A stretch of DNA of 62,977 nucleotides, taken from a virus. Its lineage: Duplodnaviria; Caudoviricetes. The stretch spans positions 1 through 62,977 of IMG/VR virus record IMGVR_UViG_3300022821_000003, one strand, 5' to 3'. Below are positions 9,604 through 61,118 of this stretch, piece after piece (position 1 is the stretch's first letter; every line of letters begins with the position of its first letter). A program made the position numbers and the translations under genes. The notes beneath the pieces are model-generated. The model saw nothing but the letters and a program-made list of their open reading frames with translations. It was not told where the DNA came from and searched no databases.

Positions 9604-11418
9604 ATGGCAATAAATTTAGGACAACAGTTTACACAAGGGCATAATCAAGCAGCCTCTGACTTTCTAATAAAAACAGTAGGAACAGATGATTTAACCTCTT
9701 TATCTACAAGCGAACTTGCTCGTGCTATTGATGCCGCAAATCAAGCCAATATAACGGGACTTTCTAATTGGGCTTATTCAGGCACTCAAATAAGTGGTGG
9801 CATTGAGTCTGCTTTGAGTGACTATGAAAACCAAATAAAAAGTAAAGGAGTTATAGCAGACGCAGGAAGGGATACTTTTAGAATGACTTTTACTCCAGTT
9901 TTATTACAAGAGGCAAACAGGAGAATAAATGAAGGAAAAACAGAAGCTAGAGCTGGAATGACCGCTATGACTAAGGATGGGAAAATTATTTATTATGATT
10001 TGACTAGACCTAATTTAAAGACTGAATTTGATAGAATGATTAGTGGAGAAGGATGGACTAATCAAGGAATAACAACTCCTAAGAGAGAGTACAAAAACCC
10101 AGCGTTAGCACCTGAAGGATCTGAACAAGCTAGAGTAGATGCACAAGGAGGATCTACTGGAACTGGTTGGTATGACCAAGTTACAGGAAAAGATACACCA
10201 GTTGGAGTAGGAACTCCTAGACCAACTTCAACGACAACAGATTCTCAAACTACTTCTACAGCAAATCAACCAGCAGATAAAGATATAAAAACAGCAAGGA
10301 AAGATGTTGTTGCAACATTCCATAAATACTTAGGAAGGAATCCAACATCAACAGAGGATTGGAACAATGTTTATAATCTTATGACAAAAGCTCCTACAGA
10401 AGTAGAATCTAGATTATCAGCAATATCAGATAAAATAAAAACAGATGCAACCACAGCTAGAACAGATTCTACTGGCGGGACAACTGATGCAACATCTAAT
10501 ATAGATCCTCTAAAGGTTGCACAAAACTTAGGATATACAGCAGCAGACTTTGCTAACGACCCAGGATTTACTTCATATTGGGGAAACAAAAGTAAAGCAG
10601 AATTAGAAGAAGCATTAAAGAATAGAAACGATTACGACTCAACTTCTGGTCGTAAAAGAACACCATCTGAACAAGGTTCATATGATGAGAGCTCAGGTTG
10701 GCTACAAGACCTATTAGATACTGGAGAGATAGACCAAGCACAATTCAATGCATTAGATGGCATTATGAATACAGACGATTATACTTCTGGTAAACGTGTT
10801 TATACAGAGGCAGAGATGACTAAGATAGCAATAGATGCAGAATCAAAAGCTAGAACAGACCTAGAACCATATTATACAGATTTAAAGTCTAGAGATATGG
10901 AGGACTTGAAGACTGGATATGAAGATATAAATAATTCAGCAGCTAGATATACACAGAATGAACAGAAGAGTTATAAAGAAACACTAGCAGCGACTAAACA
11001 GGGACTAAGAGCTAAGGGACTAACATTTTCTGGACAATCTAGAGGGACATTAGGAAAAGAAGGAGCTTTAGCAGACAAAGGAGTTGAAGGCTCAGTACCA
11101 CAAAACAGGAGATATTCTATAGAAGATAATCTAGCAGGATTCCAACAACAAGCAAGAGATTTAGGAACAACTGCAGAAAGAAGATATGGAAGTGCAGCTT
11201 TAACTGGACAAGCAGGATATCTAGAACCAGGTACATTGCCAGACCCATATAGCAGTGGTTTAGACTATAATACTTCTAGTACAAGGTCTTTATATGACCC
11301 AAAGAAAGATGCTTCACAGAGAGGTTATGTCAGCCCTGAACAATCAGACATAGCTAGGGAAAGAGAACTAGAAGTTCAAAAAAGAAAACAAGATAGACTT
11401 AATACTTATAAATACTAA
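9604..11418 (+). CDS. Putative ejection / internal virion protein
   Basis: Large T/Q/G-rich protein between the tail genes and the giant ORF, as in podovirus gene order. Confidence 0.5.
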   Translation: MAINLGQQFTQGHNQAASDFLIKTVGTDDLTSLSTSELARAIDAANQANITGLSNWAYSGTQISGGIESALSDYENQIKSKGVIADAGRDTFRMTFTPVLLQEANRRINEGKTEARAGMTAMTKDGKIIYYDLTRPNLKTEFDRMISGEGWTNQGITTPKREYKNPALAPEGSEQARVDAQGGSTGTGWYDQVTGKDTPVGVGTPRPTSTTTDSQTTSTANQPADKDIKTARKDVVATFHKYLGRNPTSTEDWNNVYNLMTKAPTEVESRLSAISDKIKTDATTARTDSTGGTTDATSNIDPLKVAQNLGYTAADFANDPGFTSYWGNKSKAELEEALKNRNDYDSTSGRKRTPSEQGSYDESSGWLQDLLDTGEIDQAQFNALDGIMNTDDYTSGKRVYTEAEMTKIAIDAESKARTDLEPYYTDLKSRDMEDLKTGYEDINNSAARYTQNEQKSYKETLAATKQGLRAKGLTFSGQSRGTLGKEGALADKGVEGSVPQNRRYSIEDNLAGFQQQARDLGTTAERRYGSAALTGQAGYLEPGTLPDPYSSGLDYNTSSTRSLYDPKKDASQRGYVSPEQSDIARERELEVQKRKQDRLNTYKY

Positions 11419-22356: not shown

Positions 22357-22773
22357 CTATTGTGACTTCTGTGGATTAAGATATCGATCGTGCATATGAC
22401 GAATCACATCTTCCCCAACAGGAGCTTCCCTCTTTTTATCTCTCCTTATGCATTCATTAAGAGGTGTATTTATAAACTTAACATTAACTTCTGCATCATT
22501 GATTTCTGCTATTAAAGACATTTGTTTAAAATGCTTTACTTCAAAATTAGTGTCATCTACAACTACATTATGACCATGAATTAATGCTAAGTCTATAATC
22601 ATATCTCTAATCTCAATAACAAGTTTTTCATTGTTTCTACTGTAATGACTACTATCAACCATTGCTCTTATGTCATCTTTATTGACTCTTTTCCATCCTT
22701 TCTCAACAAGTTCTTTAGCATATGTAGACTTTCCTGATGCTGGGAGTCCTTTTAAAATTAGTATCTTACTCAT
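22357..22773 (-). CDS. Polynucleotide 5'-kinase domain (N-terminal half of T4 PNKP-like)
   Basis: GLPASGKST P-loop, RVNKDDIR, VVDDTN and ECIRRD motifs. Confidence 0.85.
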   Translation of the reverse strand: MSKILILKGLPASGKSTYAKELVEKGWKRVNKDDIRAMVDSSHYSRNNEKLVIEIRDMIIDLALIHGHNVVVDDTNFEVKHFKQMSLIAEINDAEVNVKFINTPLNECIRRDKKREAPVGEDVIRHMHDRYLNPQKSQ

Positions 22774-33950: not shown

Positions 33951-34670
33951 TTAAAATGGCATTGGCTCAACAGGGATGCCAGCCGACATAGTAGCACCAG
34001 AGGGCACAGGAGGGGCATCAGGCGTTTTATTTGCATGGTCTGCCTTAATGTGTATGAGACTGTTAAGGTCTACGTATATGGAAGGTGCTATCTGGTTAAT
34101 CTTTAGAGCATGTTTCCTTACCATGTTTCCGATAAGACCTCCTATAACTAAACAGTTAAAAGAGATAGACCTACCAGTGCATTGTTCATGGTCGACAGCT
34201 CCTGGTTCTACTGTAGATAATAAGTAGGTTCTTGATTTATAATAATGTAGTTCAAATGATAAGCCTCCCATTCTTCCATCTATTATTGTTAAATCCTTAT
34301 CTTTATATATCTCTCCTAATCTTATTCTCTCTGCCATCGAATCTATTGTTATTATGATAAGACCATCTACAATATACTCCTCTTCTTTTATATTCTTCAT
34401 GATAGATATTGTAGTTCCTGTCTGTTCAAAGACATTTTTAGCTAGTGCCTTGACCTTGAACTCTCCGAGTTGGTCTTCTTTGTAGAACTGAGATGCTATG
34501 TTATGATTCTCTACCTTATCATTGTCATAGACAGTAATGTTACTGCATCCGACTTTAGCAAGTGTTAATGCAACCCAACTTCCTATCCCACCTGCTCCAA
34601 GGATATGTATTGGAAACCTTAAGTCTCCAGCTTTTATGATGTCGAGTTGTCTACTATATCTTTTAGACAT
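33951..34670 (-). CDS. E1-like ThiF/MoeB-family adenylyltransferase
   Basis: RYSRQ, ILGAGGIGS, YDNDKVENHNIASQ, KVKAL and IDGRMG motifs; candidate catalytic Cys in HEQCT. Confidence 0.9.
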   Translation of the reverse strand: MSKRYSRQLDIIKAGDLRFPIHILGAGGIGSWVALTLAKVGCSNITVYDNDKVENHNIASQFYKEDQLGEFKVKALAKNVFEQTGTTISIMKNIKEEEYIVDGLIIITIDSMAERIRLGEIYKDKDLTIIDGRMGGLSFELHYYKSRTYLLSTVEPGAVDHEQCTGRSISFNCLVIGGLIGNMVRKHALKINQIAPSIYVDLNSLIHIKADHANKTPDAPPVPSGATMSAGIPVEPMPF

Positions 34671-34671
34671 T

Positions 34672-35700
34672 CTATTGTTTTAGTTCATGACCATTACCTA
34701 ATCCTTTAATATCAGAATCGATAATATCATCTTCTTCAGATGAATCATTAACATTTTTATATGAATTAGCTATGTATCCATTGACAGCATCGTATTCATC
34801 TCCGTATAAATTACCATACTTTTCATAATAATCATCACAGATACAAAAGGTTACTGGATTATAACAATCAGGACAAAAGATTATTTCTTCATCGCTTTCT
34901 TCTAATCTTTCACACTCTTCACATCTCCTATCATCAACTCCATAGATTATATCATCAAGTTTATTTTCGAAAGTAGCCTTGTCCGTTCTGCCAAAGAATG
35001 AGTCTTGCGTTTTTTTTTTAGATTTTTCATAAGTCCTCTCAACTTTATAGACTTTTTCCCTAACCTTAGCTTTAACTTCAGCCTCACATTCAGAATATAT
35101 CTCTGGGCAATAGAATAAGAGTTTCTTTGTCTCAGCAATCTCATCATCTTTTTTAGATATTTCATCTTCTAAAGCTGATTGTTCTTCCTCTAATTTAGAG
35201 ACAGTTTCTTCTATAACTTTATCCAGATCTTCATCAATGAGAATCTCTACATCAACCTTTGTTTCATGTGGAGCAAAGACTAAACCAAAGTCAGATGGGT
35301 CTAACGGAAGCACATCGATACGTCCTAAAAACTTTCCCTCCTTATTCGTAACGATTGATATAAGTTTCTTATTGTCTTTTACATGCTCCTTTATTGTATC
35401 ATCATCTGTAGTTGACCACGAAACACCTAAATCTCCATGTGTATGCCACCAAACATTCCAGTCCTTTAATGACTCTTTAGCTTTAGACATATCATACATA
35501 AACTTAGCCATTGCTCCAGTATCTAGGTTAGTCGATGCAGAACCACATTCTTGGTCAAAAAGTGCTATATCTATTAACATAATCTCACCATCCTCTGTAA
35601 TAACACTCTTTCCCATCCCAGAGACTTCTCCAGGTGCATGATGAGTGTAGGCAGCGAGTTTGATTGCTGTTTTATTTTCTATTAATATTTTTTCTACCAT
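34672..35700 (-). CDS. JAB/MPN metalloprotease (deubiquitinase-like) with coiled coil and Cys-rich tail
   Basis: GEVSG and WWHTHGDLGVSWSTTD (HxH-x7-S-x2-D). Confidence 0.85.
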   Translation of the reverse strand: MVEKILIENKTAIKLAAYTHHAPGEVSGMGKSVITEDGEIMLIDIALFDQECGSASTNLDTGAMAKFMYDMSKAKESLKDWNVWWHTHGDLGVSWSTTDDDTIKEHVKDNKKLISIVTNKEGKFLGRIDVLPLDPSDFGLVFAPHETKVDVEILIDEDLDKVIEETVSKLEEEQSALEDEISKKDDEIAETKKLLFYCPEIYSECEAEVKAKVREKVYKVERTYEKSKKKTQDSFFGRTDKATFENKLDDIIYGVDDRRCEECERLEESDEEIIFCPDCYNPVTFCICDDYYEKYGNLYGDEYDAVNGYIANSYKNVNDSSEEDDIIDSDIKGLGNGHELKQ

Positions 35701-35706
35701 AGCGAC

Positions 35707-36819
35707 TTAAGTGGATGAAAGCTCTTCTCCACAATCTGGACAATCACCATCTTCATTAATAGTTACAGAACGCTCGCAGTTCTCACAATATGCACTCGTA
35801 GTATTTAAGTTCTTGAAGTCTTCAGCAAACTTACGACCATCCCATTTCTCATTTTCATCCCAGTAAATATTAGAAAACCAATCGATTTCATTCTCTGGCT
35901 TAATAGTTACAGTCTGAGCACAAAAGAATTCTTCCTCTTGAATATATGGATTACCATAGTCTGGTTTTTCTAAGAATATAATTAAAAGATAAGCTAAACC
36001 GATTATATTCCCTTCATTCCTTAACTTCATGACCTCATCACCCACACTCTCTCCTAAACATAAAGTTGAATTGTTTATACAAGGATGGTGGTATTTGAAC
36101 CTGTCTTTATGTCTCTTGTAGTTTATTGCTCTGACTCTTTGACCAGAATCTAATGGGATTAAAATTTTATATGCACCTAAAGTAAAGTCTCCTAATGATG
36201 ATCCTTCTCTATGATATACTAAATCATTAGTTGTGATTAGAACACTTTTATATCCATCAGATTCTATTGGGTCTACTGATGCTATCTTCTTATTAGACAT
36301 AAACTTATCATACTTGGAAACAAGTTCATCCACATTAACTGTTAGTCCTCTTTTACTTTTAATTAAGTCTGCAAGCTTATGATTGTCACCTTCTATCTGT
36401 AGTTCTTTTCTAGATAAATCTGCAGCAAGACTTCTTGCAGTAGATACTAAAGAACGTAATGAATCTTCTTTAGACCTAATCTTTATTGGTAACTCAGATA
36501 TTTTCTTGAAAGCAAGTTCTCTAATCAATCCAACAAATGCACGTTTCTTTTCATCTGATAAATCAACAGAACTATCTAAATCAGACTCTTTGAATAGCAA
36601 ACTATATCCATTCATTCTATCTGTCCTATTCTCTAATGTATGACAGAACGGATGTTCGTCATCAAAAGCAATGTTTAACATACTATCTCTAATCTCGATA
36701 ATTGTTCCTTTATATTTATTATCTTCTACATCAAACAAATCTTTATTTGACATAAAAGGTTTAAAGTTTTTGTTAGTAACGATTCTATCACCAACATAGA
36801 CTTTTGTATTTTTTCTCAT
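35707..36819 (-). CDS. E2-like (Prok-E2) protein with N-terminal SH3-like domain, coiled coil and C-terminal Zn ribbon
   Basis: HHPCINNSTLCLG resembles the E2 HP...CL active site; lies between the Ubl and JAB genes. Confidence 0.7.
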   Translation of the reverse strand: MRKNTKVYVGDRIVTNKNFKPFMSNKDLFDVEDNKYKGTIIEIRDSMLNIAFDDEHPFCHTLENRTDRMNGYSLLFKESDLDSSVDLSDEKKRAFVGLIRELAFKKISELPIKIRSKEDSLRSLVSTARSLAADLSRKELQIEGDNHKLADLIKSKRGLTVNVDELVSKYDKFMSNKKIASVDPIESDGYKSVLITTNDLVYHREGSSLGDFTLGAYKILIPLDSGQRVRAINYKRHKDRFKYHHPCINNSTLCLGESVGDEVMKLRNEGNIIGLAYLLIIFLEKPDYGNPYIQEEEFFCAQTVTIKPENEIDWFSNIYWDENEKWDGRKFAEDFKNLNTTSAYCENCERSVTINEDGDCPDCGEELSST

Positions 36820-38608: not shown

Positions 38609-39058
38609 CTAGAACGAACCCTCTGCCACTTGAAGACATTTAAGACCAAGCTCCCTCCACATTTGGACGACTTGATTCCTGTCATCAAGGACAAATAGTA
38701 TATTATATTTATCTTTTACATTTGCATCAAACAACTCTCTCTTGACGATACTATCCCTTCTATTATCTTTATTGGTTCTCATAAACAAATCATCATAAGG
38801 GATATCATTAGTCATTAACCATTCAAGAGTTACATCTTTACAGTCTTCATCTCTCCCAGACAACAATATTATTCTGTAATCATCTGCTTTATACTTCTTT
38901 ACAATGTCTAAGATGTGATAATGAACTCCATCGCCTATTGCTTTATGATATTCGAATGGTGTTCTGTCAATCATGTAGGCTAAAGTGCCGTCAATATCGA
39001 CGATTAATGCTTTAGGTAGATATGCTCTATCTATTGCTATATTTTTTATCTTTGTCAT
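38609..39058 (-). CDS. Polynucleotide 3'-phosphatase (HAD; C-terminal half of T4 PNKP-like)
   Basis: DIDGTLA, LSGR, LFMR, RRDSIVK and DDRNQVV motifs. Confidence 0.9.
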   Translation of the reverse strand: MTKIKNIAIDRAYLPKALIVDIDGTLAYMIDRTPFEYHKAIGDGVHYHILDIVKKYKADDYRIILLSGRDEDCKDVTLEWLMTNDIPYDDLFMRTNKDNRRDSIVKRELFDANVKDKYNILFVLDDRNQVVQMWRELGLKCLQVAEGSF

Positions 39059-39368
39059 AGTTAAAACATTTTAAATTATAATCTTTTGTTGATTGTTTAA
39101 ATGGTTTTATTACACTGAATTTATTTTCATATTGCCAATGATTATCATAACAGTTTATAGTCCATCCATATTTATAATCAGAACAAGAATTAATTATTGG
39201 GTTGCCTCCCCTGTAATCAGGATTGTTGGATACAAACATAAAATAGTCATATTCTTCTGATGTTTTGTATATCTTCCCAACTGTTGAATGTCCAGAGTTA
39301 CTCACTACAACTACATCTATCGGTTCATCTTTTTTTAATTTTAATAGTTTTTGTCTAAATGCTTTCAT
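39027..39368 (-). CDS. YNxxC-tag family protein (YNLKCFNYDK)
   Basis: Shared tag; internal YKYGW motif. Confidence 0.7.
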   Translation of the reverse strand: MKAFRQKLLKLKKDEPIDVVVVSNSGHSTVGKIYKTSEEYDYFMFVSNNPDYRGGNPIINSCSDYKYGWTINCYDNHWQYENKFSVIKPFKQSTKDYNLKCFNYDKDKKYSNR

Positions 39369-39382
39369 ATATTTTATCTATG

Positions 39383-39885
39383 TTGCGAGAGTGGGATTTG
39401 AACCCACGACCTCATGGTTATATTAAAGCACTATCAATAACAAAATCTTTAGCCCAAAGGATTGTACTAATACAAAGATTATTTTTAGGTTTTTGATATC
39501 TTAAAGTTATTGTTGTTTTCTTTAACATATCTCCAGAGATTATATATACTTTATCTAATTTTTCGCACCAGATAGCTATATAATCTACCTTCTCGTAGCA
39601 TGATTCATATTTGATTCTTTTAGAACCAATTCTTTTACGAATATCTGCAACAACACATCCATTAGATGTTTTACCATGTTTTATTTGTATTTTTTTTAAA
39701 GTTCCATCAAAATCAGCTATCATATCATATGGTTCGTTATCTCCGAACGGCAATGAAACTGGATAGCCTCTTTTAATAAACTCAGCAATAATAACACCTT
39801 CTGCCTTATTTCCCTTTGATTTTGTATTCATAATTTAATAATGCACTAATGAGCCATGCGAGCTACCTGACTGCTCTACCTCGCT
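39383..39885 (-). tRNA. tRNA-Met(CAT), initiator-like, split by a 429-nt insert (exons 39851-39885 and 39383-39421)
   Basis: The joined halves give AGCGAGG TA GAGC AGTCAGGTA GCTC G CATGG CTCATAA CCATG AGGTC GTGGG TTCAAAT CCCAC TCTCGCA A, with a 1:72 mismatch and A11-U24. Confidence 0.85.
39418..39831 (-). CDS. PD-(D/E)XK homing endonuclease, I-Ssp6803I-like, inside tRNA-fMet
   Basis: TKSKGNKAE...PFGDNEPYDMI...IQIK resembles the group I intron-associated PD-(D/E)XK family. Confidence 0.8.
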   Translation of the reverse strand: MNTKSKGNKAEGVIIAEFIKRGYPVSLPFGDNEPYDMIADFDGTLKKIQIKHGKTSNGCVVADIRKRIGSKRIKYESCYEKVDYIAIWCEKLDKVYIISGDMLKKTTITLRYQKPKNNLCISTILWAKDFVIDSALI

Positions 39886-39924
39886 ACAAACCCACGATAT
39901 GTGGGTTTGTGACTTAAGTGGATT

Positions 39925-40299
39925 CTATAGATAGTTACTTCCTTTTAATTCTTTCAAGATTTTAGCTATTGCTCTTGGTCCTTGTGCATTTAAAATCTTG
40001 TCTAGTTTGTCTGCAACGAAATCCTCTTCTGTTTCATACTTTTGATAGAAATCTAACTCTTCTTGAATCTCTTTAATTTCAGACTGTAATCTCTTGATTA
40101 GCTTTTTTCTATTCTCAAAGACGAATTCATCATTTGGATAAATACTGACGCTTCCACCCCTTTGGTCGTCGTTTGCTGAGAAACAACCACCACCATTGAT
40201 AGCTGAAACTCTTAACAGCCTCCCGACATAAGATGTTCCTCCGTGTAGAGATTTTTTTAAGATGATCTCATCACCTATAATAACTCTAGGATTTTTCAT
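39925..40299 (-). CDS. Hypothetical protein (SH3-like plus coiled coil)
   Basis: ORF with IGDEII start. Confidence 0.6.
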   Translation of the reverse strand: MKNPRVIIGDEIILKKSLHGGTSYVGRLLRVSAINGGGCFSANDDQRGGSVSIYPNDEFVFENRKKLIKRLQSEIKEIQEELDFYQKYETEEDFVADKLDKILNAQGPRAIAKILKELKGSNYL

Positions 40300-44701: not shown

Positions 44702-46219
44702 ATGTACGACGACACAGACAAACCAGAAATATCAGAAGGAATTAAATTCTGGAAGAATCCAAAGAATGGTTTTCACGTATTGATGCTCCACTACACGGCT
44801 GACGAATCTAAAAATCCAAAGACTACTGAAGGAGCAAAATGGTATGAAGCAGAGAGAGAAGGTTCACCTAAAGCAGTTTGGAATAAAGAATACGAAATTG
44901 ACTTCACAACTAAAGCTGGTCAATTAGTATATGGTCCAGAGTTTTGTGACTTTAAACCAAGCATACACCTAGTCGATTCATTCGAACTAGGAGATGTAGA
45001 ATTATTTATAGGGATGGACTTTGGACAGAGGAACCCTAACTGTGCTCTAGTAGGAGCAATAACAAGAGATAAGAAAGTTTATATAATAGATGAGTATTAT
45101 AACCCAGCGATACCAAGTGTAGCAAGTAAGGAAATGTTCGACAAATTTGGTTATTTAATTTCTGGGTATAGAGACAACTTATCAATAGGACAAAAGAAAA
45201 TTCTAGCAGACAACACATTTCAAGTGAAAGTCATCGATCCATCGACAGCAAGCAAGAATAGAACAAAAATAATAGAAGGAGAAGAAGTACCATATTCAGT
45301 CATAGAGGATTTCGATGACAATGGATGGGAATTCGAACCAGCAACGAACGACTTTGTAGCTGGAGTAACAAGAGTAAGGGAATATATGAGGATAGACGGT
45401 TTACTAAACTCACACTTATATATATTTAAAGATAAGTGTCCTAAACTCTGTTGGGAATTACAACACTATCGTTATAAAGAGAATACAGAAGCGACAGATA
45501 GACAGAATAATGAACCAGAGAAACCAGTAAAGAAGGATGATCATTGCCTAGCTGGAGATTCAATTATAAATACAGTTAACGGAGATTTTAAAATAAAAGA
45601 CCTTGTTGGCAAAAGTGGATATGTTTATTCATATAGCAATGAACTAAAAAGAGTCCAAGTCAATAGATATGACAACGTTAGGCAGACAAAAGTAGCTGAG
45701 ACATTAAAAATAACCCTAGATGACGATTCAGAAATAGTTTGTACATATGACCATCCTATAATGATTAGGAGCGGAGAATATAGATTAGCTGGAGAATTAA
45801 AAGCAGGAGATAGCTTAATGCCAGTTTATCAAACGATTGACTCACACGGGCATACAAGAATAAACCTAAATAATGGAGATAGTATGTTCGCACACAGAGT
45901 TAATAAATATAGAAAGAAGAAATATTGTGAAGAGGGATGCAGAGCAATCGGTTTCTCAAGAAACAAAAAAGAGTGGAATCATAAAATCAAGAAGATAGAG
46001 AAAGGTGAGGTTATACCAGTATATAATATGCACGTAGATAGGGTTAATAACTTTTCTTGTAATGGAATTATAGTTCACAATTCTATGGACGCACTTAGAT
46101 ATTTGATAATGACCAGACCAAATAAACCAGAAGAAGCGCCTACAGCAAGAACAAAAGTTCAAAGAGATTTAGATCAATTAATACGACCTAAAATCCTATC
46201 AGGGTTTGATGTCGACTAA
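44702..46219 (+). CDS. terL: Terminase large subunit, nuclease half, intein-containing
   Basis: EYEIDF, GMDFGQRNP, IDEYY, IDPS and DDH|SMDALRY motifs. Confidence 0.85.
   Translation: MYDDTDKPEISEGIKFWKNPKNGFHVLMLHYTADESKNPKTTEGAKWYEAEREGSPKAVWNKEYEIDFTTKAGQLVYGPEFCDFKPSIHLVDSFELGDVELFIGMDFGQRNPNCALVGAITRDKKVYIIDEYYNPAIPSVASKEMFDKFGYLISGYRDNLSIGQKKILADNTFQVKVIDPSTASKNRTKIIEGEEVPYSVIEDFDDNGWEFEPATNDFVAGVTRVREYMRIDGLLNSHLYIFKDKCPKLCWELQHYRYKENTEATDRQNNEPEKPVKKDDHCLAGDSIINTVNGDFKIKDLVGKSGYVYSYSNELKRVQVNRYDNVRQTKVAETLKITLDDDSEIVCTYDHPIMIRSGEYRLAGELKAGDSLMPVYQTIDSHGHTRINLNNGDSMFAHRVNKYRKKKYCEEGCRAIGFSRNKKEWNHKIKKIEKGEVIPVYNMHVDRVNNFSCNGIIVHNSMDALRYLIMTRPNKPEEAPTARTKVQRDLDQLIRPKILSGFDVD
45545..46081 (+). 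mobile_element. Mini-intein (179 aa) in the TerL nuclease motif
   Basis: Starts CLAGDS, has block B CTYDH, ends IIVHN followed by Ser. Confidence 0.9.
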
Positions 46220-47357: not shown

Positions 47358-48941
47358 ATGTATAAAGAAATAAAATTTAACAACGACGCAAGAGTAAAGA
47401 TTTTAGAAGGAGTTAATATCGTCGCAGATGCTGTCGCAACAACTTTAGGTCCAAGAGGAAATACTGTGATATTCGAGGAGAGTCTTTATCCGACAATAAC
47501 AAAGGACGGCGTAACGGTTAGTCAGCAAATCTTATTAGAAGATAAATTCCAAAGTATGGGGGCTATGATGGCAAGAGAGGCAGCAGAAAACACAAATAGA
47601 GAAGCAGGAGATGGAACAACTTCAACAGTAGTTCTACTAAGAGGAATTGCAAACGAAGGACACAAATATATTACAGCTGGAATGAATCCTATACTTATTA
47701 AAAGGGGTATGGATGAAGCATTAATACAGGCTATCGATATTATAGATGGAAATAAAAAAGAAGTAACCTCTATAGATGAGAGAGTGCAGATTGCAACAAT
47801 CTCTGCAAACAATGATCCAGAAATTGGTCAAATGATTGCAGATGTTATAGAGGAAACAGGAACTAATGGTATTGTTACTGTAACAAATTCTAACTCAATG
47901 GAAACAGAAGTTGAATATGTTAAAGGAACAAAATTGGATAGAGGATATTCATCACATATGTTCATAACAAATAGAAAAAGACTTTCAGCAGAAATGGCTA
48001 ACCCAATAATTATTCTTACTACAGATAAGATTAATATGGAGAGTCAATTAATTAAAATTCTACAAAGCCTACTTGAAGCAGGTAAAAGAGAATTTATTCT
48101 AGTAGGTGGGACAGTAGAAGGACCAGCATTAGCATTTCTTACACAGAATCATTTACTTGGTAAGTTCACATGTATACCAGTGAGTATGCCTTCATTTGGA
48201 GATTACCAAAGAGACTTATTTTATGACTTGGCTGCATTAACAGGAGCAACTGTTCTTGGAGAAGAGGAGTCTACAAAGTTGAAAGATGGTAAACTATCTG
48301 ATTGTGGAATAGCAGAGAATGTAATTGTAACAAGAGATTCTACTATATTTACTGGAGCTAATGGAGATATAAAAACAAGAGTAGATGAAGTGAAAGCATT
48401 AATATCCAAATATAAAGATTTATTCATAATAGAACAATTAAAAAAACGTTTAGGCAGATTAAATGGATCTATTGCTAATATTAAAGTAGGTGGTTCATCA
48501 GAGACAGAACAGACTGAAAAGAAGTATAGAATAGAAGACGCATTAAATTCTACCAAATCTGCTGTAGAAGATGGCATTATTGAAGGTGGAGGAACAGCAT
48601 TGCTGAAAGCATCTTCATCAATGTTAATGGATAATGATATAAGCGAAGAACAAAAAGCTGGATGGAAAATTGTAGTAGCATCGATGGAGCTTCCATGTAA
48701 ACAGATCATGGAGAATTCAGGTTTACCAGCAGATGCAATTATCGCAAAGATTAAAGAAGATGGAATAGGTTATAATGCACTAACTAATAAATATGAAGAT
48801 TTATATGAGAGTGGAGTTATAGACCCAGTAAGATGTGTTAAAAAAGAATTATCTAACGCAGTTGCAACAGCAGGAACACTTTTGACATCCTCAGTCGCAA
48901 TCGCACTAAAGCCAAATGATAGAAGCAGTATTAGCAATTAG
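47358..48941 (+). CDS. groEL: Chaperonin GroEL
   Basis: TTLGPRG, ITKDGVTV, AGDGTTS, ATISAN and GVIDP motifs; no GGM tail. Confidence 0.95.
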   Translation: MYKEIKFNNDARVKILEGVNIVADAVATTLGPRGNTVIFEESLYPTITKDGVTVSQQILLEDKFQSMGAMMAREAAENTNREAGDGTTSTVVLLRGIANEGHKYITAGMNPILIKRGMDEALIQAIDIIDGNKKEVTSIDERVQIATISANNDPEIGQMIADVIEETGTNGIVTVTNSNSMETEVEYVKGTKLDRGYSSHMFITNRKRLSAEMANPIIILTTDKINMESQLIKILQSLLEAGKREFILVGGTVEGPALAFLTQNHLLGKFTCIPVSMPSFGDYQRDLFYDLAALTGATVLGEEESTKLKDGKLSDCGIAENVIVTRDSTIFTGANGDIKTRVDEVKALISKYKDLFIIEQLKKRLGRLNGSIANIKVGGSSETEQTEKKYRIEDALNSTKSAVEDGIIEGGGTALLKASSSMLMDNDISEEQKAGWKIVVASMELPCKQIMENSGLPADAIIAKIKEDGIGYNALTNKYEDLYESGVIDPVRCVKKELSNAVATAGTLLTSSVAIALKPNDRSSISN

Positions 48942-52460: not shown

Positions 52461-55400
52461 ATGGCACAGTCCGTAACAAACATGGCTGGAGCTGCGATAA
52501 ATCTTGTCGCCTCGTAGAGTAATCTACGTGTAAAATCAATTAAATTGCGGGAACATCCTTAGAGCTTTAACTACACTGACTCGTGTAAAAACGTTAAAGA
52601 TTGGACAATCTGCATCAAAATCTTATGACAATTAAAAGGTGTGTTCATTGTAATAGAGATTACAAGACACAAGACACTAAAAGAAAATTTTGTTCACAAA
52701 AATGTTTTAGAGAATGGAGAAAAGAAAATTGGCATCCATCTCAAGACCATAAAGATTCAATAAGTAAAAAATTAAAAGGTCAAAAATCAACTGGGAAGCC
52801 CTTCGAGAAGGGGCATACGATAAACAATGGTAGAGAACCATGGAATAAAAATAAAACTGGAGTTCAGAAAGCATGGAATAAAGGATTAGTAATGAAGAAT
52901 TACTACGATGAAGAACAGTACCAAAAATTTATAAAAGGTTGTATAAAAGGTGGAATTGCTTGTTGCTTAAAAGTAGCAGACAATACAAATAGAACAAAAA
53001 TAGAAATAATATTAGAAGATATAGTAGAAGAACTTGGAATAAAATATATGACACAGTATCCATTACTTGGGATAACTGTAGCAGATATATATTTGCCAGA
53101 CCACCATATAGCAATATATGCAGATGGAGATTACTGGCATAACTATCCTCATGGAACGAATAAAGACCATGAAGTTAACAAGGAACTAAAGAATGCTAAT
53201 ATACAAGTAATGCGTTTCTGGGAATGTGACATATATAAAGACATTGACAGAGTAAAAAAAATCATAAGAGATGTTCAGAGACTATAATATTGCCCCTCGG
53301 CAGAGGGTGAAGGGATAGTCCGACTTATACCGAAAGGTATTGGATATACATGGAGAGTATATGACGGCGTTGTTCACGAGCAAGTATTCACAAAGAATGT
53401 TTTGTTCATGAATGTATTAAAAAACGTTGCTCATGATACTGGAGCAGTTTCAGTCGCAGGCGCTTCAGCTACAGGTGGTGGTGGTAAAATGATTACAGTA
53501 CATTATGGTCGTAAATGTGTTGCGACCCTTAGAAAGTAATTTCTTTGACAATTTAACTAACTATATGCTGGAAACTCCTTAGAGCCTTTCGTACCAAAGT
53601 GTAAAAATCGAAAGGATTGGACAATCAGCAGAAAAGATTTCTATGAAAGAAAACAAATATCTTGCATATTTAACAGGAGTTTACCTTTCAGATGGATCAT
53701 GTTTTAAACATGAGAGAGGATATGTTTTTAAACTATCTTCAATTGATATGGATTATATAAATTATACAAATAAATGTATAGATAATCTGATAAACAAAAC
53801 TGGATCTATTTACGAAAGTAAACCAACTGGATGGGGCAAGAAAAATATATTCACAATTCGCATATACGAAAAGCAATTATTTGAATATTTAACAATACAA
53901 ACAGAAAAGAAAACAAAAATACCAACTTGGATTTTAGAAGGGAAAGAAAGCATTAAAAAAGAATTTATTGCTGGAATGGTGGATGGTGATGGTTGGGTTG
54001 TTTTCAACGTATCTGGTACTGGGAGAGGTTTAAACTGGCAAATCGGATTAAGTGGTTCTGAAATAATGATGAACAATATTTCAAGAATGTGTAATAAAAT
54101 GCAACTTAAATCGTGGGGTCCAACAAAAATCAAAACTAGTAAAAATACGTATAGACTATTTTTCGACACACTTGATTTTATAAAATTTAAAATAAAATTA
54201 AGGATAGACAGGAAAATGGCTAGAATAAATTTCATTAGAAAAATTCTCAACGACTACATGTTAGTCTCCAAGACAAATCCAAAAAGGATTAAAGAAGTTC
54301 TTGGATGAAGATATAGTCTCATCTTTATGTAGACATAAAGCTAAGATATTAAACGAACACTGGTAGTGCAGCTGGATCTGAATCATTAACTTTACCTACA
54401 GCTGGACAGCAAGCTTATATACAAGCTAACATCCCGATGAAATATAACTTTCATCAAATTTCTCTTACAGACGTTGTTTTACAAGGTTCAAAGAGATCAA
54501 AAGAGTTCTTAGTAAACGTTTTAGAATCAGAATATGATGGAGCTAAGAATGATATGCAGAGACAGTTATCACGTCAAGGGTATGGTATTAAACGACTTCT
54601 TACCAGGTTACTGATTCCATCGTGTGCCCTATAAAACACACAAATAAAATTATCACTAATAAGGGGAATCCTGAAATTGGCAACCCCTAGCAAGCACATT
54701 ACAATTTATTTCGGTTTTATATAATAAAATATGAAACAAACAAAAGCAATTAAACTGGCTTATCTAGCTGGCTTTATAGATGGAGAAGGATGTATAATGA
54801 TAGCAAAAAGAAATCCTAGATTAGAAGGAAGAATAAATGTTAGTTATTCAATTCTATTAACAATATCTCAAAAAGATGGAGCAATAATGGATTGGTTAAC
54901 TGGTAACTTCGGAGGTAGTGTTCAATATAAGAACAAAGAAAGAGATATTTATGTCTGGAATATAACACATAAGAAAGCAGCAAAAGTACTTAAAGAAGTC
55001 CTTCCATTTATCAAATATAAAAGACCACAAATAGAAATTGCTATTAGATTACAAAATAGATTAACCAAAACGTTAAAAGGAAAAGATGGCAGAGCATTAC
55101 CATTAACTGATAGCGAAATAATCAAACGAGAAGAAATGTATTTAGAATGCAAAAAACTAAAACATATTTATAAAGAATCAAAATACCGAAATAAATTAAA
55201 TAATGGTGCAGCTGTAGAGACTAAGTGTGATAACCTAGAGATAGGAAGCGATAGTCCGACCTTGCAGAAATAACAACTGTAAGATGTTAGCAGAAATGAC
55301 TAACACTCCTCAATAGAGGAAGTAACAACTTGGGAACTGGAGAAATTGCTAAAGTAAATGCAGACCCTTCAACTGGTACTACTGTAGAATTAGACAACCC

Positions 55401-59426: not shown

Positions 59427-61118
59427 ATGAAGATAAGAAAAGCGATATTATTGCCTGATATACATTATCCAGAGCATTCTAAATCAAGTATGAATTTAGT
59501 TAAGAAGTTTATAAAAGACTTCAAACCAGACGAGATAATATATCAAGGAGATAATCTAGATATGGATGTTATATCTCACTGGAATAAAGATAAGAAAAGA
59601 AAAGTAGAACTAAAGAGATTAAAGAATGATTACGATGGTTTTGACAGAGACATTCTAAAACCGATAGAGAGCTTAGTAGGGAAGAAAACAAAGTTTGTAT
59701 GGTTAAATGGAAATCATGAGGACTGGGCTAACCAATACTTAGACAAGAATCCAGAATTAGAAGGGATTGTAGAACCAGAAATATGTCTCAACTTAGAGAA
59801 AAGAGGATACGAGTTTATCCCATTCAACAAAATATATAAGCTTGGTAAACTTAATATCATACATGGATATTATACAAGTAAGTATCATGCAGCTAAGACT
59901 TTAGATGTATTTGGAGAAAGTGTGGCGTATGGACACTGTTTTGATGATAAAACAGAGCTACTGACAAAAGATGGCTGGAAGTACATCAAAGACGTTTCAT
60001 TGGACGAAGAGATAATAACATCGAATTTAAACAAAGATGTTTTAGAATATAACAAAATAGAAAAGATATATAAATACAATAACTATAAAAAATTAGTCAA
60101 GATAAAAAGTCGTTCATTCGACTTATTAGTCACACCAGACCATGGAGTTGTTAATTTCAATAGTAATAATGAACCTGTTCTTTTAAAGGCATCAGAGGTT
60201 ACAGACAAAAATTACGCTAAATTTAAAATTTGTGGGGAATTAAAAAGAGATGGAGTGGATTTAACAGATGATGAATTATCATTGATTGTATGGATAACAG
60301 CAGATGGATCGTTCGATGGAAGAACAGGAATAAGATTTCACTTAAAAAAGGATAGGAAAATAAAGTATTTAAGTCATTTATTGACTAAAATGGGAATAGG
60401 GTTTAGCAGCAAAAAGACAAAAATAGGAACTACAAGAATCTACTTTAATTTAGAAAGGTATAAAGACAATAAGAAAATAATACCATTATTTGATTTCAGT
60501 TCATGCAAAAAGAAAGTTCTGCCGTCAATAATCAGGGGTTGTAATTTGGAACAAGCGAAATTATTATTATATGAATATTCAATAACAGACGGATGCAGAG
60601 TAGCTTTTGGGTCATACCAACTTTCTACATCGAAAGAAGTAGAAGCAGATATATTACAAGAAGTTTTTGTCACGAATGGAATGAGATGTAATAAATTAGA
60701 GAGGATACGTGATGGAGTGCAAAATAATAGTTTTATTTTGTCGGTTAACACAAACACAAACCCAGTTGAATTTAAGACAAATAATATAGAAACTGTTGGA
60801 TATTCTGGTGATGTCATGTGTGTCACCGTTAAAAACCACACATTGTTAGTCAGACGAAACGGGAGAACATGTATAACACAGAACACACACAGTCCACAAA
60901 TGCAAGCCAAAGTCAAACCTATAGACACACAAGAATTTCATGCAGCATATGGGTTACCATGCTTAGCAGACCTAGCACCAGACTATATGCATAACAGACC
61001 CAGTGCATGGATAAATGGATTTGGAGTTGTATATATAATGCCAGACGGAACATTTAACTTATATACAATAATAATAGTTAATAATAGATTTGTTTTTAAT
61101 AACAAGCTATATAAATAA
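59427..61118 (+). CDS. Calcineurin-like metallophosphoesterase with intein
   Basis: PDIHYP, GDNLD, GNHE, HG and GH|TH motifs. Confidence 0.85.
   Translation: MKIRKAILLPDIHYPEHSKSSMNLVKKFIKDFKPDEIIYQGDNLDMDVISHWNKDKKRKVELKRLKNDYDGFDRDILKPIESLVGKKTKFVWLNGNHEDWANQYLDKNPELEGIVEPEICLNLEKRGYEFIPFNKIYKLGKLNIIHGYYTSKYHAAKTLDVFGESVAYGHCFDDKTELLTKDGWKYIKDVSLDEEIITSNLNKDVLEYNKIEKIYKYNNYKKLVKIKSRSFDLLVTPDHGVVNFNSNNEPVLLKASEVTDKNYAKFKICGELKRDGVDLTDDELSLIVWITADGSFDGRTGIRFHLKKDRKIKYLSHLLTKMGIGFSSKKTKIGTTRIYFNLERYKDNKKIIPLFDFSSCKKKVLPSIIRGCNLEQAKLLLYEYSITDGCRVAFGSYQLSTSKEVEADILQEVFVTNGMRCNKLERIRDGVQNNSFILSVNTNTNPVEFKTNNIETVGYSGDVMCVTVKNHTLLVRRNGRTCITQNTHSPQMQAKVKPIDTQEFHAAYGLPCLADLAPDYMHNRPSAWINGFGVVYIMPDGTFNLYTIIIVNNRFVFNNKLYK
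59937..60884 (+). mobile_element. Intein (316 aa) with LAGLIDADG-like endonuclease
   Basis: Starts CFDDKTELLT, has VTPDH, WITADGS and YSITDG, and ends CITQN followed by Thr. Confidence 0.9.

What the first reader, a model, noticed from the sequence alone, without database searches (positions are those of the whole stretch)
39383..39885. tRNA-fMet interrupted by a ribozyme-less, stem-closed homing-endonuclease insert
Seen: the tRNA halves are intact, and the 429-nt insert (39422-39850 for a 34/35 junction; shiftable by up to 2 nt) is almost entirely an I-Ssp6803I-like PD-(D/E)XK ORF. There is no room for a group I core and no P7 GACTA/TAGTC. The insert ends pair as a 16-bp helix (AUUAGUGCAUUAUUAA with UUGAUAGUGCUUUAAU; G-U pairs and one U-U) whose base leaves CUC + AUAA, exactly the 7-nt anticodon loop. 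The ORF stop codon lies in the 3' exon; a circularised intron would instead stop in frame a few codons past the junction, reminiscent of archaeal I-DmoI introns. Established: I-Ssp6803I sits in a self-splicing group I intron of cyanobacterial tRNA-fMet. Inference: this may be a protein-spliced intron type in a bacterial virus. It is not a canonical bulge-helix-bulge.
Basis: partly seen in the sequence, partly recalled or inferred. Interest (0 to 1): 0.85.

Follow-up and report, generated by a model that had tools for sequence, protein, structure and literature searches.

The report
Endonuclease gene splits phage initiator tRNA
A phage's initiator tRNA gene is split at the anticodon by a selfish nuclease gene with no self-splicing RNA around it, so the tRNA is either dead or rescued by a splicing route not yet known in bacteria.

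Summary
On the minus strand, an initiator-type tRNA-Met (39885-39382) is split in its anticodon loop by a 429-nt insert. The insert is 19 nt of leader plus a 137-aa PF11645 (I-Ssp6803I-like) endonuclease ORF, whose stop codon is U36-A37-A38 of the tRNA.

The insert's two ends form a 16-position helix (15 pairs). No group I core, no omega-G and no bulge-helix-bulge are present. A relative's tRNA intron (L089) scored as group I in the same kind of search.

The nuclease family lives at tRNA genes. Of 76 clusters, 41 lie beside a tRNA and 6 inside one. Members occur in group I introns, in a BHB-like intron, free-standing, antisense inside a broken tRNA-fMet (L278), and beside tRNA-fMet genes that carry 23-26-nt hairpin inserts at the same site.

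Whether the insert is spliced is open. The end helices, the wobble pairs and the intact exons favour an RNA-level role. Against splicing: exons have decayed in three sister lineages (L005, L014/L015, L278), and the phage shows no match to the EndA, RtcB or ligase families searched.

My odds: unspliced selfish insertion 0.5; protein-dependent intron 0.33. No RNA data exist. It is a new variant of a known kind.

The parts
39851..39885 (-). tRNA-Met (initiator type) 5' exon, positions 1-34 for a 34/35 junction
   Evidence: ARAGORN with introns; cloverleaf in the fold. A1.A72 mismatch, A11:U24 and G30-C40/G31-C39 were read from the sequence.
39422..39850 (-). 429-nt insert in the anticodon loop (junction 34/35, 35/36 or 36/37)
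   Evidence: One metagenome contig (X12) joins 39419 to 39849, skipping 429 nt with a 2-nt ambiguity.
39835..39850 (-). 5' strand of the terminal helix (insert nt 1-16); it ends 3 nt before the ATG
   Evidence: duplex -10.9 kcal/mol.
39422..39437 (-). 3' strand of the terminal helix, inside the last codons of the ORF
39418..39831 (-). Homing-endonuclease ORF, 137 aa, PF11645 PD-(D/E)XK; the stop codon is U36-A37-A38 of the tRNA
   Evidence: All 15 invariant columns of the 24-sequence alignment are kept.
39382..39421 (-). tRNA-Met 3' exon (A35 to C74; CCA not encoded)
39886..39924 (-). Upstream leader: one copy of a 16-nt motif repeated 12 times in the genome (39909-39924), then a hairpin (39888-39908) abutting the tRNA 5' end
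   Evidence: 12 matches against 0.12 expected, all on the minus strand.

Best explanation
A selfish homing-endonuclease cassette of the I-Ssp6803I family has homed into the anticodon loop of the phage's initiator tRNA gene.

Shown: the cassette is minimal, namely a 19-nt leader and an ORF that borrows its stop codon from the tRNA. It has no ribozyme, so it cannot self-splice.

Inferred: the nuclease cuts uninterrupted tRNA-fMet genes of co-infecting phages, or of the host, at the anticodon loop. Repair then copies the cassette in, and the insertion destroys the site in its carrier. The nuclease is translated from the read-through pre-tRNA transcript. Once the 3' end is transcribed, the 16-position helix forms, folds the insert out of the tRNA body and hides the region just upstream of the AUG.

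On present evidence the tRNA is most likely not restored. The intact exons would then reflect a recent invasion, and sister lineages show the later decay.
For: The ORF fills the insert. There is no group I or II match in window 39250-40000, while the same search mode finds RF00028 at 51.9 bits (E 3e-12) in L089, a relative's tRNA-Asn intron. There is no omega-G.

The family is tRNA-associated and mostly free-standing: of 76 clusters (116 windows), 41 lie within 150 nt of a same-strand tRNA and 6 lie inside one.

The same 3' junction, with the ORF stop TAA directly before the CC of the anticodon stem, is seen in the window, L005 and L014/L015 (nuclease 51-57% identical). In two of these three lineages the exons are degenerate or partly deleted.

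L278 has a full-length PF11645-like ORF antisense in a tRNA-fMet-like gene. It has no end helix, and 3 of 7 acceptor positions form Watson-Crick pairs, plus one G-U.

The phage shows no match to EndA, RtcB, Rnl1, Rnl2 or DNA ligase families. It is riddled with other selfish elements: two intein matches (one of them below Pfam's cut-off), plus HNH, LAGLIDADG and Vsr-like genes.
Against: The end helix is far beyond chance. It recurs with other sequences in L005 (10 Watson-Crick pairs at the very ends) and in L029.

Among 49 full-length family members searched for a pairing between the 5' leader and the 3' end, the window ranks first. So the helix is not a general feature of the nuclease gene.

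By my own reading, non-Watson-Crick positions in these helices and hairpins are about 10 G-U, 0 A-C and 2 other. That fits an RNA of the tRNA-sense strand. The count is biased, because helices were sought on that strand with G-U allowed.

Hairpin inserts of 23-26 nt without any ORF sit at the same site in well-formed initiator tRNA genes (L196, L271/L273). Control of nuclease expression cannot explain these.

The window's exons keep every conserved tRNA feature.
Confidence: 0.5

Rival explanations
1. It is a real intron of a kind not described in bacteria or phages: ribozyme-free, not BHB, closed by a helix at the anticodon of initiator tRNA. A protein endonuclease would cut at the base of the helix, and a ligase (for example host RtcB, or a kinase-phosphatase plus ligase route) would rejoin CUC(AU) to (AU)AA. 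The 23-26-nt hairpin inserts would be the ORF-less form. The window would be the form in which the nuclease gene has moved into the hairpin loop, as in Shub's recalled 'collaborative homing' route to mobile introns.
For: End helices at the exact insert ends in the window (15 of 16; about 1e-4) and in L005 (10 of 10). Cutting at the helix base leaves 3+4 nt (window) or 5+2 nt (L005), a 7-nt loop in both.

Mini-inserts occur at the same site in 5 loci of 2 lineages, found among 9 pattern hits. All 3 differences between the L266 and L272 inserts preserve the hairpin (two are wobble-to-Watson-Crick changes, one lies in the loop).

The mini-insert persists where the neighbouring nuclease gene is broken by a TGA (L196) or reduced to a short remnant of its 5' end (L266). 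L271/L273 is a stand-alone, well-formed initiator gene followed by a terminator-like hairpin.

Lak megaphages of Prevotella were reported to have 'enigmatic' tRNA introns (PMC6784885, passages read). This phage also looks like a phage of Bacteroidota, with a Shine-Dalgarno-like motif before only 7 of 62 genes. RtcB is found in the Bacteroides control genome. The phage encodes both halves of a polynucleotide kinase-phosphatase as separate genes.
Against: No endonuclease for such a site is known in bacteria. The phage has no recognisable ligase or EndA, and the two large records that carry mini-inserts have no RtcB.

In the loci read, the inserts occur only at the nuclease's presumed target site, as expected for immunity scars rather than for a general splicing system.

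Exons are decayed in L005, L014/L015 and L278, and the T-stem is bulged in L266 and L272. No RNA evidence of any kind exists.
Confidence: 0.33
2. It is an archaeal-type bulge-helix-bulge intron in a virus of archaea, spliced by host EndA and RtcB.
For: The relative L029 has a near-canonical BHB at 37/38 of a tRNA-Val(UAC): a 5-bp stem, a 3-nt bulge AUU, a 4-bp helix CUUA/UAAG, a 2-3-nt bulge, then a helix of 9 or more bp. It holds a PF11645 ORF. The BHB definition was read in PMC4090602. Family members also lie in haloarchaeal genomes, and the runs holding the window are labelled salt lake metagenome.
Against: The window's fold has a 3x4 internal loop followed by a continuous helix. No register gives two 3-nt bulges around 4 bp (worked through by hand).

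The tRNA has a 1.72 mismatch and A11:U24, which are bacterial initiator traits (recalled). The phage encodes a lipoprotein with an RlpA-like DPBB lytic transglycosylase domain, which points to a peptidoglycan host.
Confidence: 0.04
3. It is a group I or group II intron whose ribozyme is cryptic, overlaps the ORF, or acts in trans.
For: The family's founding member is encoded in a group I intron of tRNA-fMet. I saw only the title of Bonocora and Shub 2001, in the reference list of PMC3984707. L089 has a group I core above the gathering score, and L066 has a partial match.
Against: No Rfam match even at E up to 10. Only 19 nt are non-coding. There is no omega-G at any of the three junctions and no P7-like motif.
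Confidence: 0.02

Closest known systems
I-Ssp6803I in the group I intron of cyanobacterial tRNA-fMet
   Same: Same nuclease family (PF11645; PDB 2OST, E 1.4e-8). Same kind of gene and the same region, the anticodon loop of initiator tRNA.
   Different: No ribozyme, no omega-G and 19 nt of non-coding RNA. The carrier is a phage, not a cyanobacterium. The exact insertion position of the cyanobacterial intron could not be read here, because the papers are not held.
Archaeal BHB introns that carry homing-endonuclease ORFs (rRNA introns such as the I-DmoI intron; recalled)
   Same: A protein-coding insert with its ends brought together by a helix and no ribozyme. The relative L029 looks like this type.
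   Different: The window has no bulge-helix-bulge, and both its host and its tRNA look bacterial.
Free-standing homing endonucleases in phage tRNA clusters (T4 SegB type; PMC13096335 seen only in a search listing)
   Same: Most relatives are of this kind: 41 of 76 clusters lie within 150 nt of a same-strand tRNA.
   Different: Here the gene sits inside the tRNA, not between tRNAs.
Bacterial rRNA intervening sequences cut out by RNase III without rejoining (recalled)
   Same: An insert in a stable RNA gene, closed by a long end helix and sometimes carrying an ORF.
   Different: Fragmented rRNA still works, whereas a tRNA opened at the anticodon does not. RNase III cutting was not tested.
'Enigmatic' tRNA introns of Lak megaphages (PMC6784885, passages read)
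   Same: Phage tRNA genes with inserts that no Rfam family explains; the likely hosts are Bacteroidota.
   Different: The Lak text read here names tRNA-Thr and tRNA-Tyr and no nuclease ORF.

Membership tests
Group I intron | Catalytic core (P3-P9) detectable by the covariance model RF00028 | tested here: not met
   no match at E up to 10 in window 39250-40000. Positive control in the same mode: L089 scores 51.9 bits, E 3e-12.
Group I intron | G as the last intron base (omega-G) | tested here: not met
   the last base is T, A or T for the three possible junctions.
Group I intron | Room for about 200 nt of structured non-coding RNA | tested here: not met
   only 19 of 429 nt lie outside the ORF.
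Archaeal BHB intron | A 4-bp helix flanked by two 3-nt bulges that hold the splice sites (PMC4090602) | tested here: not met
   a 3x4 internal loop followed by a continuous helix of 16 positions.
Archaeal BHB intron | A host or virus with the splicing endonuclease EndA | tested here: inconclusive
   PF01974 is absent from the phage. The host genome is unknown.
PF11645 / I-Ssp6803I homing endonucleases | Match to the family profile above the curated cut-off | tested here: met
   99.5 bits against a cut-off of 26.1, covering profile positions 1-135 of 138.
PF11645 / I-Ssp6803I homing endonucleases | Conserved core residues of the PD-(D/E)XK site | tested here: met
   E11 (nearly invariant), D36, Q49 and K51 (invariant) are conserved columns in 24 sequences and are present here. 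Their catalytic role is inferred from the alignment to 2OST.
PF11645 / I-Ssp6803I homing endonucleases | Cleaves the uninterrupted tRNA-fMet gene | not testable with these tools
   Needs an enzyme assay.
RNase III-excised intervening sequence | A long end helix closing the insert | tested here: met
RNase III-excised intervening sequence | Excision by RNase III without rejoining | not testable with these tools
   No RNA data.

The most novel reading that the evidence does not exclude
Phage initiator tRNA genes carry a previously undescribed class of ribozyme-free, non-BHB, helix-closed introns at the anticodon. A short form (23-26 nt hairpin) and a mobile form with the nuclease gene in the hairpin loop (429-493 nt) would both be removed by a protein cut-and-rejoin pathway in bacteria, perhaps in Bacteroidota.
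Probability: 0.3. Interest if true: 0.9.

Novelty: new variant of a known kind. Interest (0 to 1): 0.6.

Why it matters
The reviews I read treat bacterial tRNA introns as group I only and protein-spliced tRNA introns as archaeal and eukaryotic (PMC4090602, PMC3984707 and the Williams preprint).

This locus, the sister inserts and the short hairpin inserts at the same site give a concrete, cheap test of whether a third route exists in bacteria or their phages: one Northern blot or RT-PCR.

Even if the answer is no, the series is instructive. One nuclease family is seen in group I introns, in a BHB-like intron, free-standing beside tRNAs, beside mini-inserts, and as naked sense or antisense inserts. 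That shows how a homing endonuclease treats dispensable phage tRNA genes as landing pads.

Tried and rejected
No RNA holder is listed for the locus, so expression and splicing could not be looked at.

In one search I laid 4 of the 24 listed runs. The one joint that skips the 429 nt has only 29 letters on its shorter side, so it may be another organism's tRNA-Met. It does not prove an intron-less allele of this phage.

Close relatives of the phage were sought with two neighbouring proteins. One search found none, and one search found only matches at 34% identity. A search with 8 kb of DNA matched only a 39-nt stretch in 2 records. The portal protein matched at 21-23% identity. No within-lineage comparison was therefore possible. 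L012 (94% over 95 aa) is cut before the 3' junction.

Duplex energies between leader and ORF end were dominated by neighbouring tRNAs and were useless. ARAGORN at 80% thresholds gave mostly false split tRNAs.

Of 116 new loci, 1 held the nuclease (L196).

In batch mode, Rfam missed the group I cores of L066 and L089. Only short-stretch searches are comparable.

The 370-aa and 342-aa neighbours are not ligases. They sit with a ThiF-like E1, and the 342-aa protein has a JAB motif. The 113-aa neighbour has no informative look-alike.

A weak EndA hit in the Bacteroides control at E up to 1 vanished at 0.001.

L271 has no match in the isolated-phage collection. The nuclease of LR756508.1 is not inside a tRNA.

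Papers on print status: searches listed no report of a ribozyme-less nuclease-bearing insert in a phage tRNA. The supplements of the Lak paper, which may list such introns, were closed.

Full report
WHAT IS THERE. The window is a complete viral record of 62,977 bp with direct terminal repeats. The feature lies on the minus strand. Standard tRNA finders see only tRNA-Trp and tRNA-Cys. With introns allowed, ARAGORN calls tRNA-Met(CAU) at 39885-39382 with a 429-nt intron.

The exons give a full cloverleaf. It has an A1.A72 mismatch, A11:U24, G30-C40 and G31-C39, and a T-loop UUCAAAU. I recall these as bacterial initiator traits.

The insert is 19 nt of leader followed by a 137-aa ORF (39831-39418). 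The ORF matches PF11645 at E 2e-28 and the I-Ssp6803I structure 2OST at E 1.4e-8. It keeps all 15 invariant columns of a 24-sequence alignment. Its stop codon is U36-A37-A38 of the tRNA.

THE HELIX. Insert nt 1-16 pair with nt 414-429: 12 Watson-Crick pairs, 3 G-U and one U-U. The minimum-free-energy fold of the 504-nt precursor keeps all four tRNA stems and this helix, leaving CUC and AUAA as a 3x4 internal loop (z -4.98). About 20 of 200,000 random 429-nt segments of the genome reach 15 end-anchored pairs. The duplex alone is worth -10.9 kcal/mol.

NOT A RIBOZYME, NOT BHB. A permissive Rfam search of 39250-40000 gives six weak, unrelated matches and no intron family. The same mode finds a group I core above the gathering score in L089. 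L089 is a phage tRNA-Asn split after U33 by a 641-nt intron that holds a PF11645 ORF and ends in G. A partial core is found in L066.

The window's insert ends in T, A or T, depending on the junction, and has no GACTA or TAGTC. No register gives two 3-nt bulges around a 4-bp helix, which is the BHB definition I read in PMC4090602.

IT IS REAL DNA. Nine runs labelled salt lake metagenome hold 0.88 or more of the sampled words. I laid 4 of the 24 listed runs, none of them flagged as the source. Contigs bridge the 3' junction in 4 of 4 and the 5' junction in 2 of 4.

THE HOST. A Shine-Dalgarno-like motif precedes only 7 of 62 genes, and the upstream regions are A-rich. G+C is 34%. The phage encodes a lipoprotein with an RlpA-like DPBB domain. 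I infer a bacterial host, probably Bacteroidota, but this is not proven.

THE FAMILY. I collected nuclease loci in four ways: with a protein alignment in three collections (8, 22 and 6 loci), and with a motif pattern in viral contigs (101 stretches).

This gave 116 distinct windows in 76 clusters at 90% identity:
- 41 clusters lie within 150 nt of a same-strand tRNA.
- 10 have a tRNA within 900 nt.
- 19 have none.
- 6 lie inside a tRNA by ARAGORN's default score.

Of those 6 inside clusters:
- L089 is a group I intron by Rfam's gathering score, and L066 has a partial, sub-threshold group I match (22.2 bits, E 0.0026).
- L143 is doubtful.
- The window, L005 and L029 have neither a ribozyme nor room for one.

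L029 is a tRNA-Val(UAC) with a near-canonical BHB at 37/38, probably of archaeal origin.

THE SISTER LINEAGES. L005 (493-nt insert) and L014/L015 share the window's 3' junction: the ORF stop TAA lies directly before the CC of the anticodon stem. Their nucleases are 51-57% identical to the window's. This looks like one old element at one site.

L005 keeps a perfect 10-bp helix at the insert ends. Its anticodon, however, would be AAA or AAU, its T-loop is UGCAUAU, and its D-loop lacks GG. L014/L015 keep a canonical 3' half, but of the 5' half only the acceptor strand remains. L012 is a 94% relative with an identical 5' exon and helix strand, but the contig is cut short.

L016 and, judging by its read-through tail, P0015 have the nuclease gene next to an uninterrupted initiator tRNA.

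LATE FINDINGS THAT CUT BOTH WAYS. A pattern for canonical initiator exons separated by a short gap found 9 stretches. Five are initiator-type tRNA genes with inserts of 23-26 nt at the same site:
- L196, L266 and L272 are related.
- L271 and L273 are identical to each other.

Each insert holds a hairpin. L266 and L272 differ at three insert positions, all neutral for the structure. In L272 an intact PF11645 gene starts about 10 nt after the tRNA. In L196 that gene has an in-frame TGA. In L266 only a short remnant of its 5' end remains. L271/L273 is a stand-alone, well-formed gene followed by a terminator-like hairpin.

The same pattern with a gap of 415-445 nt found 8 stretches. Seven are chance matches beside uninterrupted tRNAs. 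One, L278, is a tRNA-fMet-like gene with a 428-nt insert. That insert carries a full-length nuclease ORF on the opposite strand, whose stop codon is the complement of the exon's TCA. It has no end helix, and only 3 of 7 acceptor positions form Watson-Crick pairs, plus one G-U.

WEIGHING. Four points favour an RNA-level role such as splicing:
- End helices occur in three sense-oriented inserts, each with a different sequence.
- By my own reading, wobble pairs occur without any A-C. This count is biased, because I looked on the sense strand and allowed G-U.
- ORF-less hairpin inserts persist after the nuclease gene has decayed.
- The window, L196 and L271 have intact exons.

Four points count against it:
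- No enzyme is known for such a site in bacteria, and the phage shows no match to the EndA, RtcB, Rnl1/Rnl2 or DNA-ligase families searched.
- The two large mini-insert records that could be searched have no RtcB.
- In the loci read, inserts occur only at the nuclease's presumed target, as immunity scars would.
- Exons are decayed in L005, L014/L015 and L278, and the T-stems of L266 and L272 are bulged.

Intact exons can also be explained by recent homing into a working gene.

I put unspliced selfish insertion at 0.5, a protein-dependent intron at 0.33, and the remainder on BHB, a cryptic ribozyme and explanations not considered here.

PRINT STATUS. The reviews read say that bacterial tRNA introns are group I, and that phage introns known by 2014 were all in protein genes (PMC3984707; PMC4090602). 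A 2020 census kept only split tRNA calls that contained a group I hit (first of two parts of the text). Lak phages have unexplained tRNA introns. My searches listed no description of this arrangement.

Noticed in passing
L196:220-322; L266:452-554; L272:803-903; L271:8125-8221; L273:9100-9196 (minus strand): Initiator-type tRNA-Met genes of large phage contigs carry 23-26-nt hairpin inserts in the anticodon loop, at the same site as the window's insert. A PF11645 gene lies just downstream: intact in L272, with an in-frame TGA in L196, and reduced to a remnant in L266. L271 and L273 have none nearby.
   Followed up: partly
L278 (reverse strand), about 9909-10367: A tRNA-fMet-like gene is split by a 428-nt insert with a full-length PF11645-like ORF on the antisense strand. 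Its stop codon is the complement of the exon's TCA. There is no end helix, and the acceptor stem is broken. The insert ends in G after an exon-final U, so a group I check is still needed (Rfam cap reached).
   Followed up: partly
L089:960-1674: A phage tRNA-Asn(GUU) is split after U33 by a 641-nt group I intron (RF00028, 51.9 bits). A PF11645 ORF lies upstream of the core. This is a group I intron in a phage tRNA gene.
   Followed up: partly
L029:448-941 and 943-1077: A tRNA-Val(UAC) has a 419-nt BHB-like intron at 37/38 that holds a PF11645 ORF, far longer than the 11-129 nt quoted for archaeal tRNA introns. The next tRNA(CAU)-like gene has an insert of about 60 nt ahead of the anticodon arm.
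   Followed up: partly
window 22357-22773 (-) and 38609-39058 (-): The polynucleotide kinase-phosphatase is encoded as two separate genes 16 kb apart: a kinase half (AAA_33; phrog_505 positions 1-143) and a phosphatase half (HAD_PNKP; phrog_505 positions 158-295). The phosphatase gene lies two genes downstream of the split tRNA. An HNH/NUMOD3 endonuclease gene abuts the kinase gene. No ligase was found.
   Followed up: partly
window, 12 sites on the minus strand between 14565 and 41699, including 39909-39924: A 16-nt motif (consensus AATCCACTTAAGTCAC) occurs 12 times against 0.12 expected. In several cases it ends 1 nt before a start codon. It may be a phage promoter or a translational operator. 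One copy precedes the split tRNA.
   Followed up: partly
window 44702-46219 (+), 59427-61118 (+), 53643-54308 (+), 52601-53287 (+): Further selfish elements. The terminase has an intein match above Pfam's cut-off. A metallophosphoesterase has an intein match below the cut-off (22.7 against 35.8 bits). There is also a LAGLIDADG protein, and a DUF559 match with sub-threshold Vsr-like matches.
   Followed up: no
window 33951-36819 (-): A three-gene cluster: a ThiF-like E1, a 342-aa protein with a JAB motif (HxHx7SxxD), and a 370-aa protein without matches. It may be a ubiquitin-like conjugation module.
   Followed up: no
window 47358-48941 (+): A phage-encoded Cpn60/GroEL-family chaperonin (PF00118, E 2e-57).
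   Followed up: no
L006:2534-3009: A GOLLD RNA (RF02032, 189.9 bits) lies in a phage tRNA cluster, about 600 nt downstream of a free-standing PF11645 gene.
   Followed up: no
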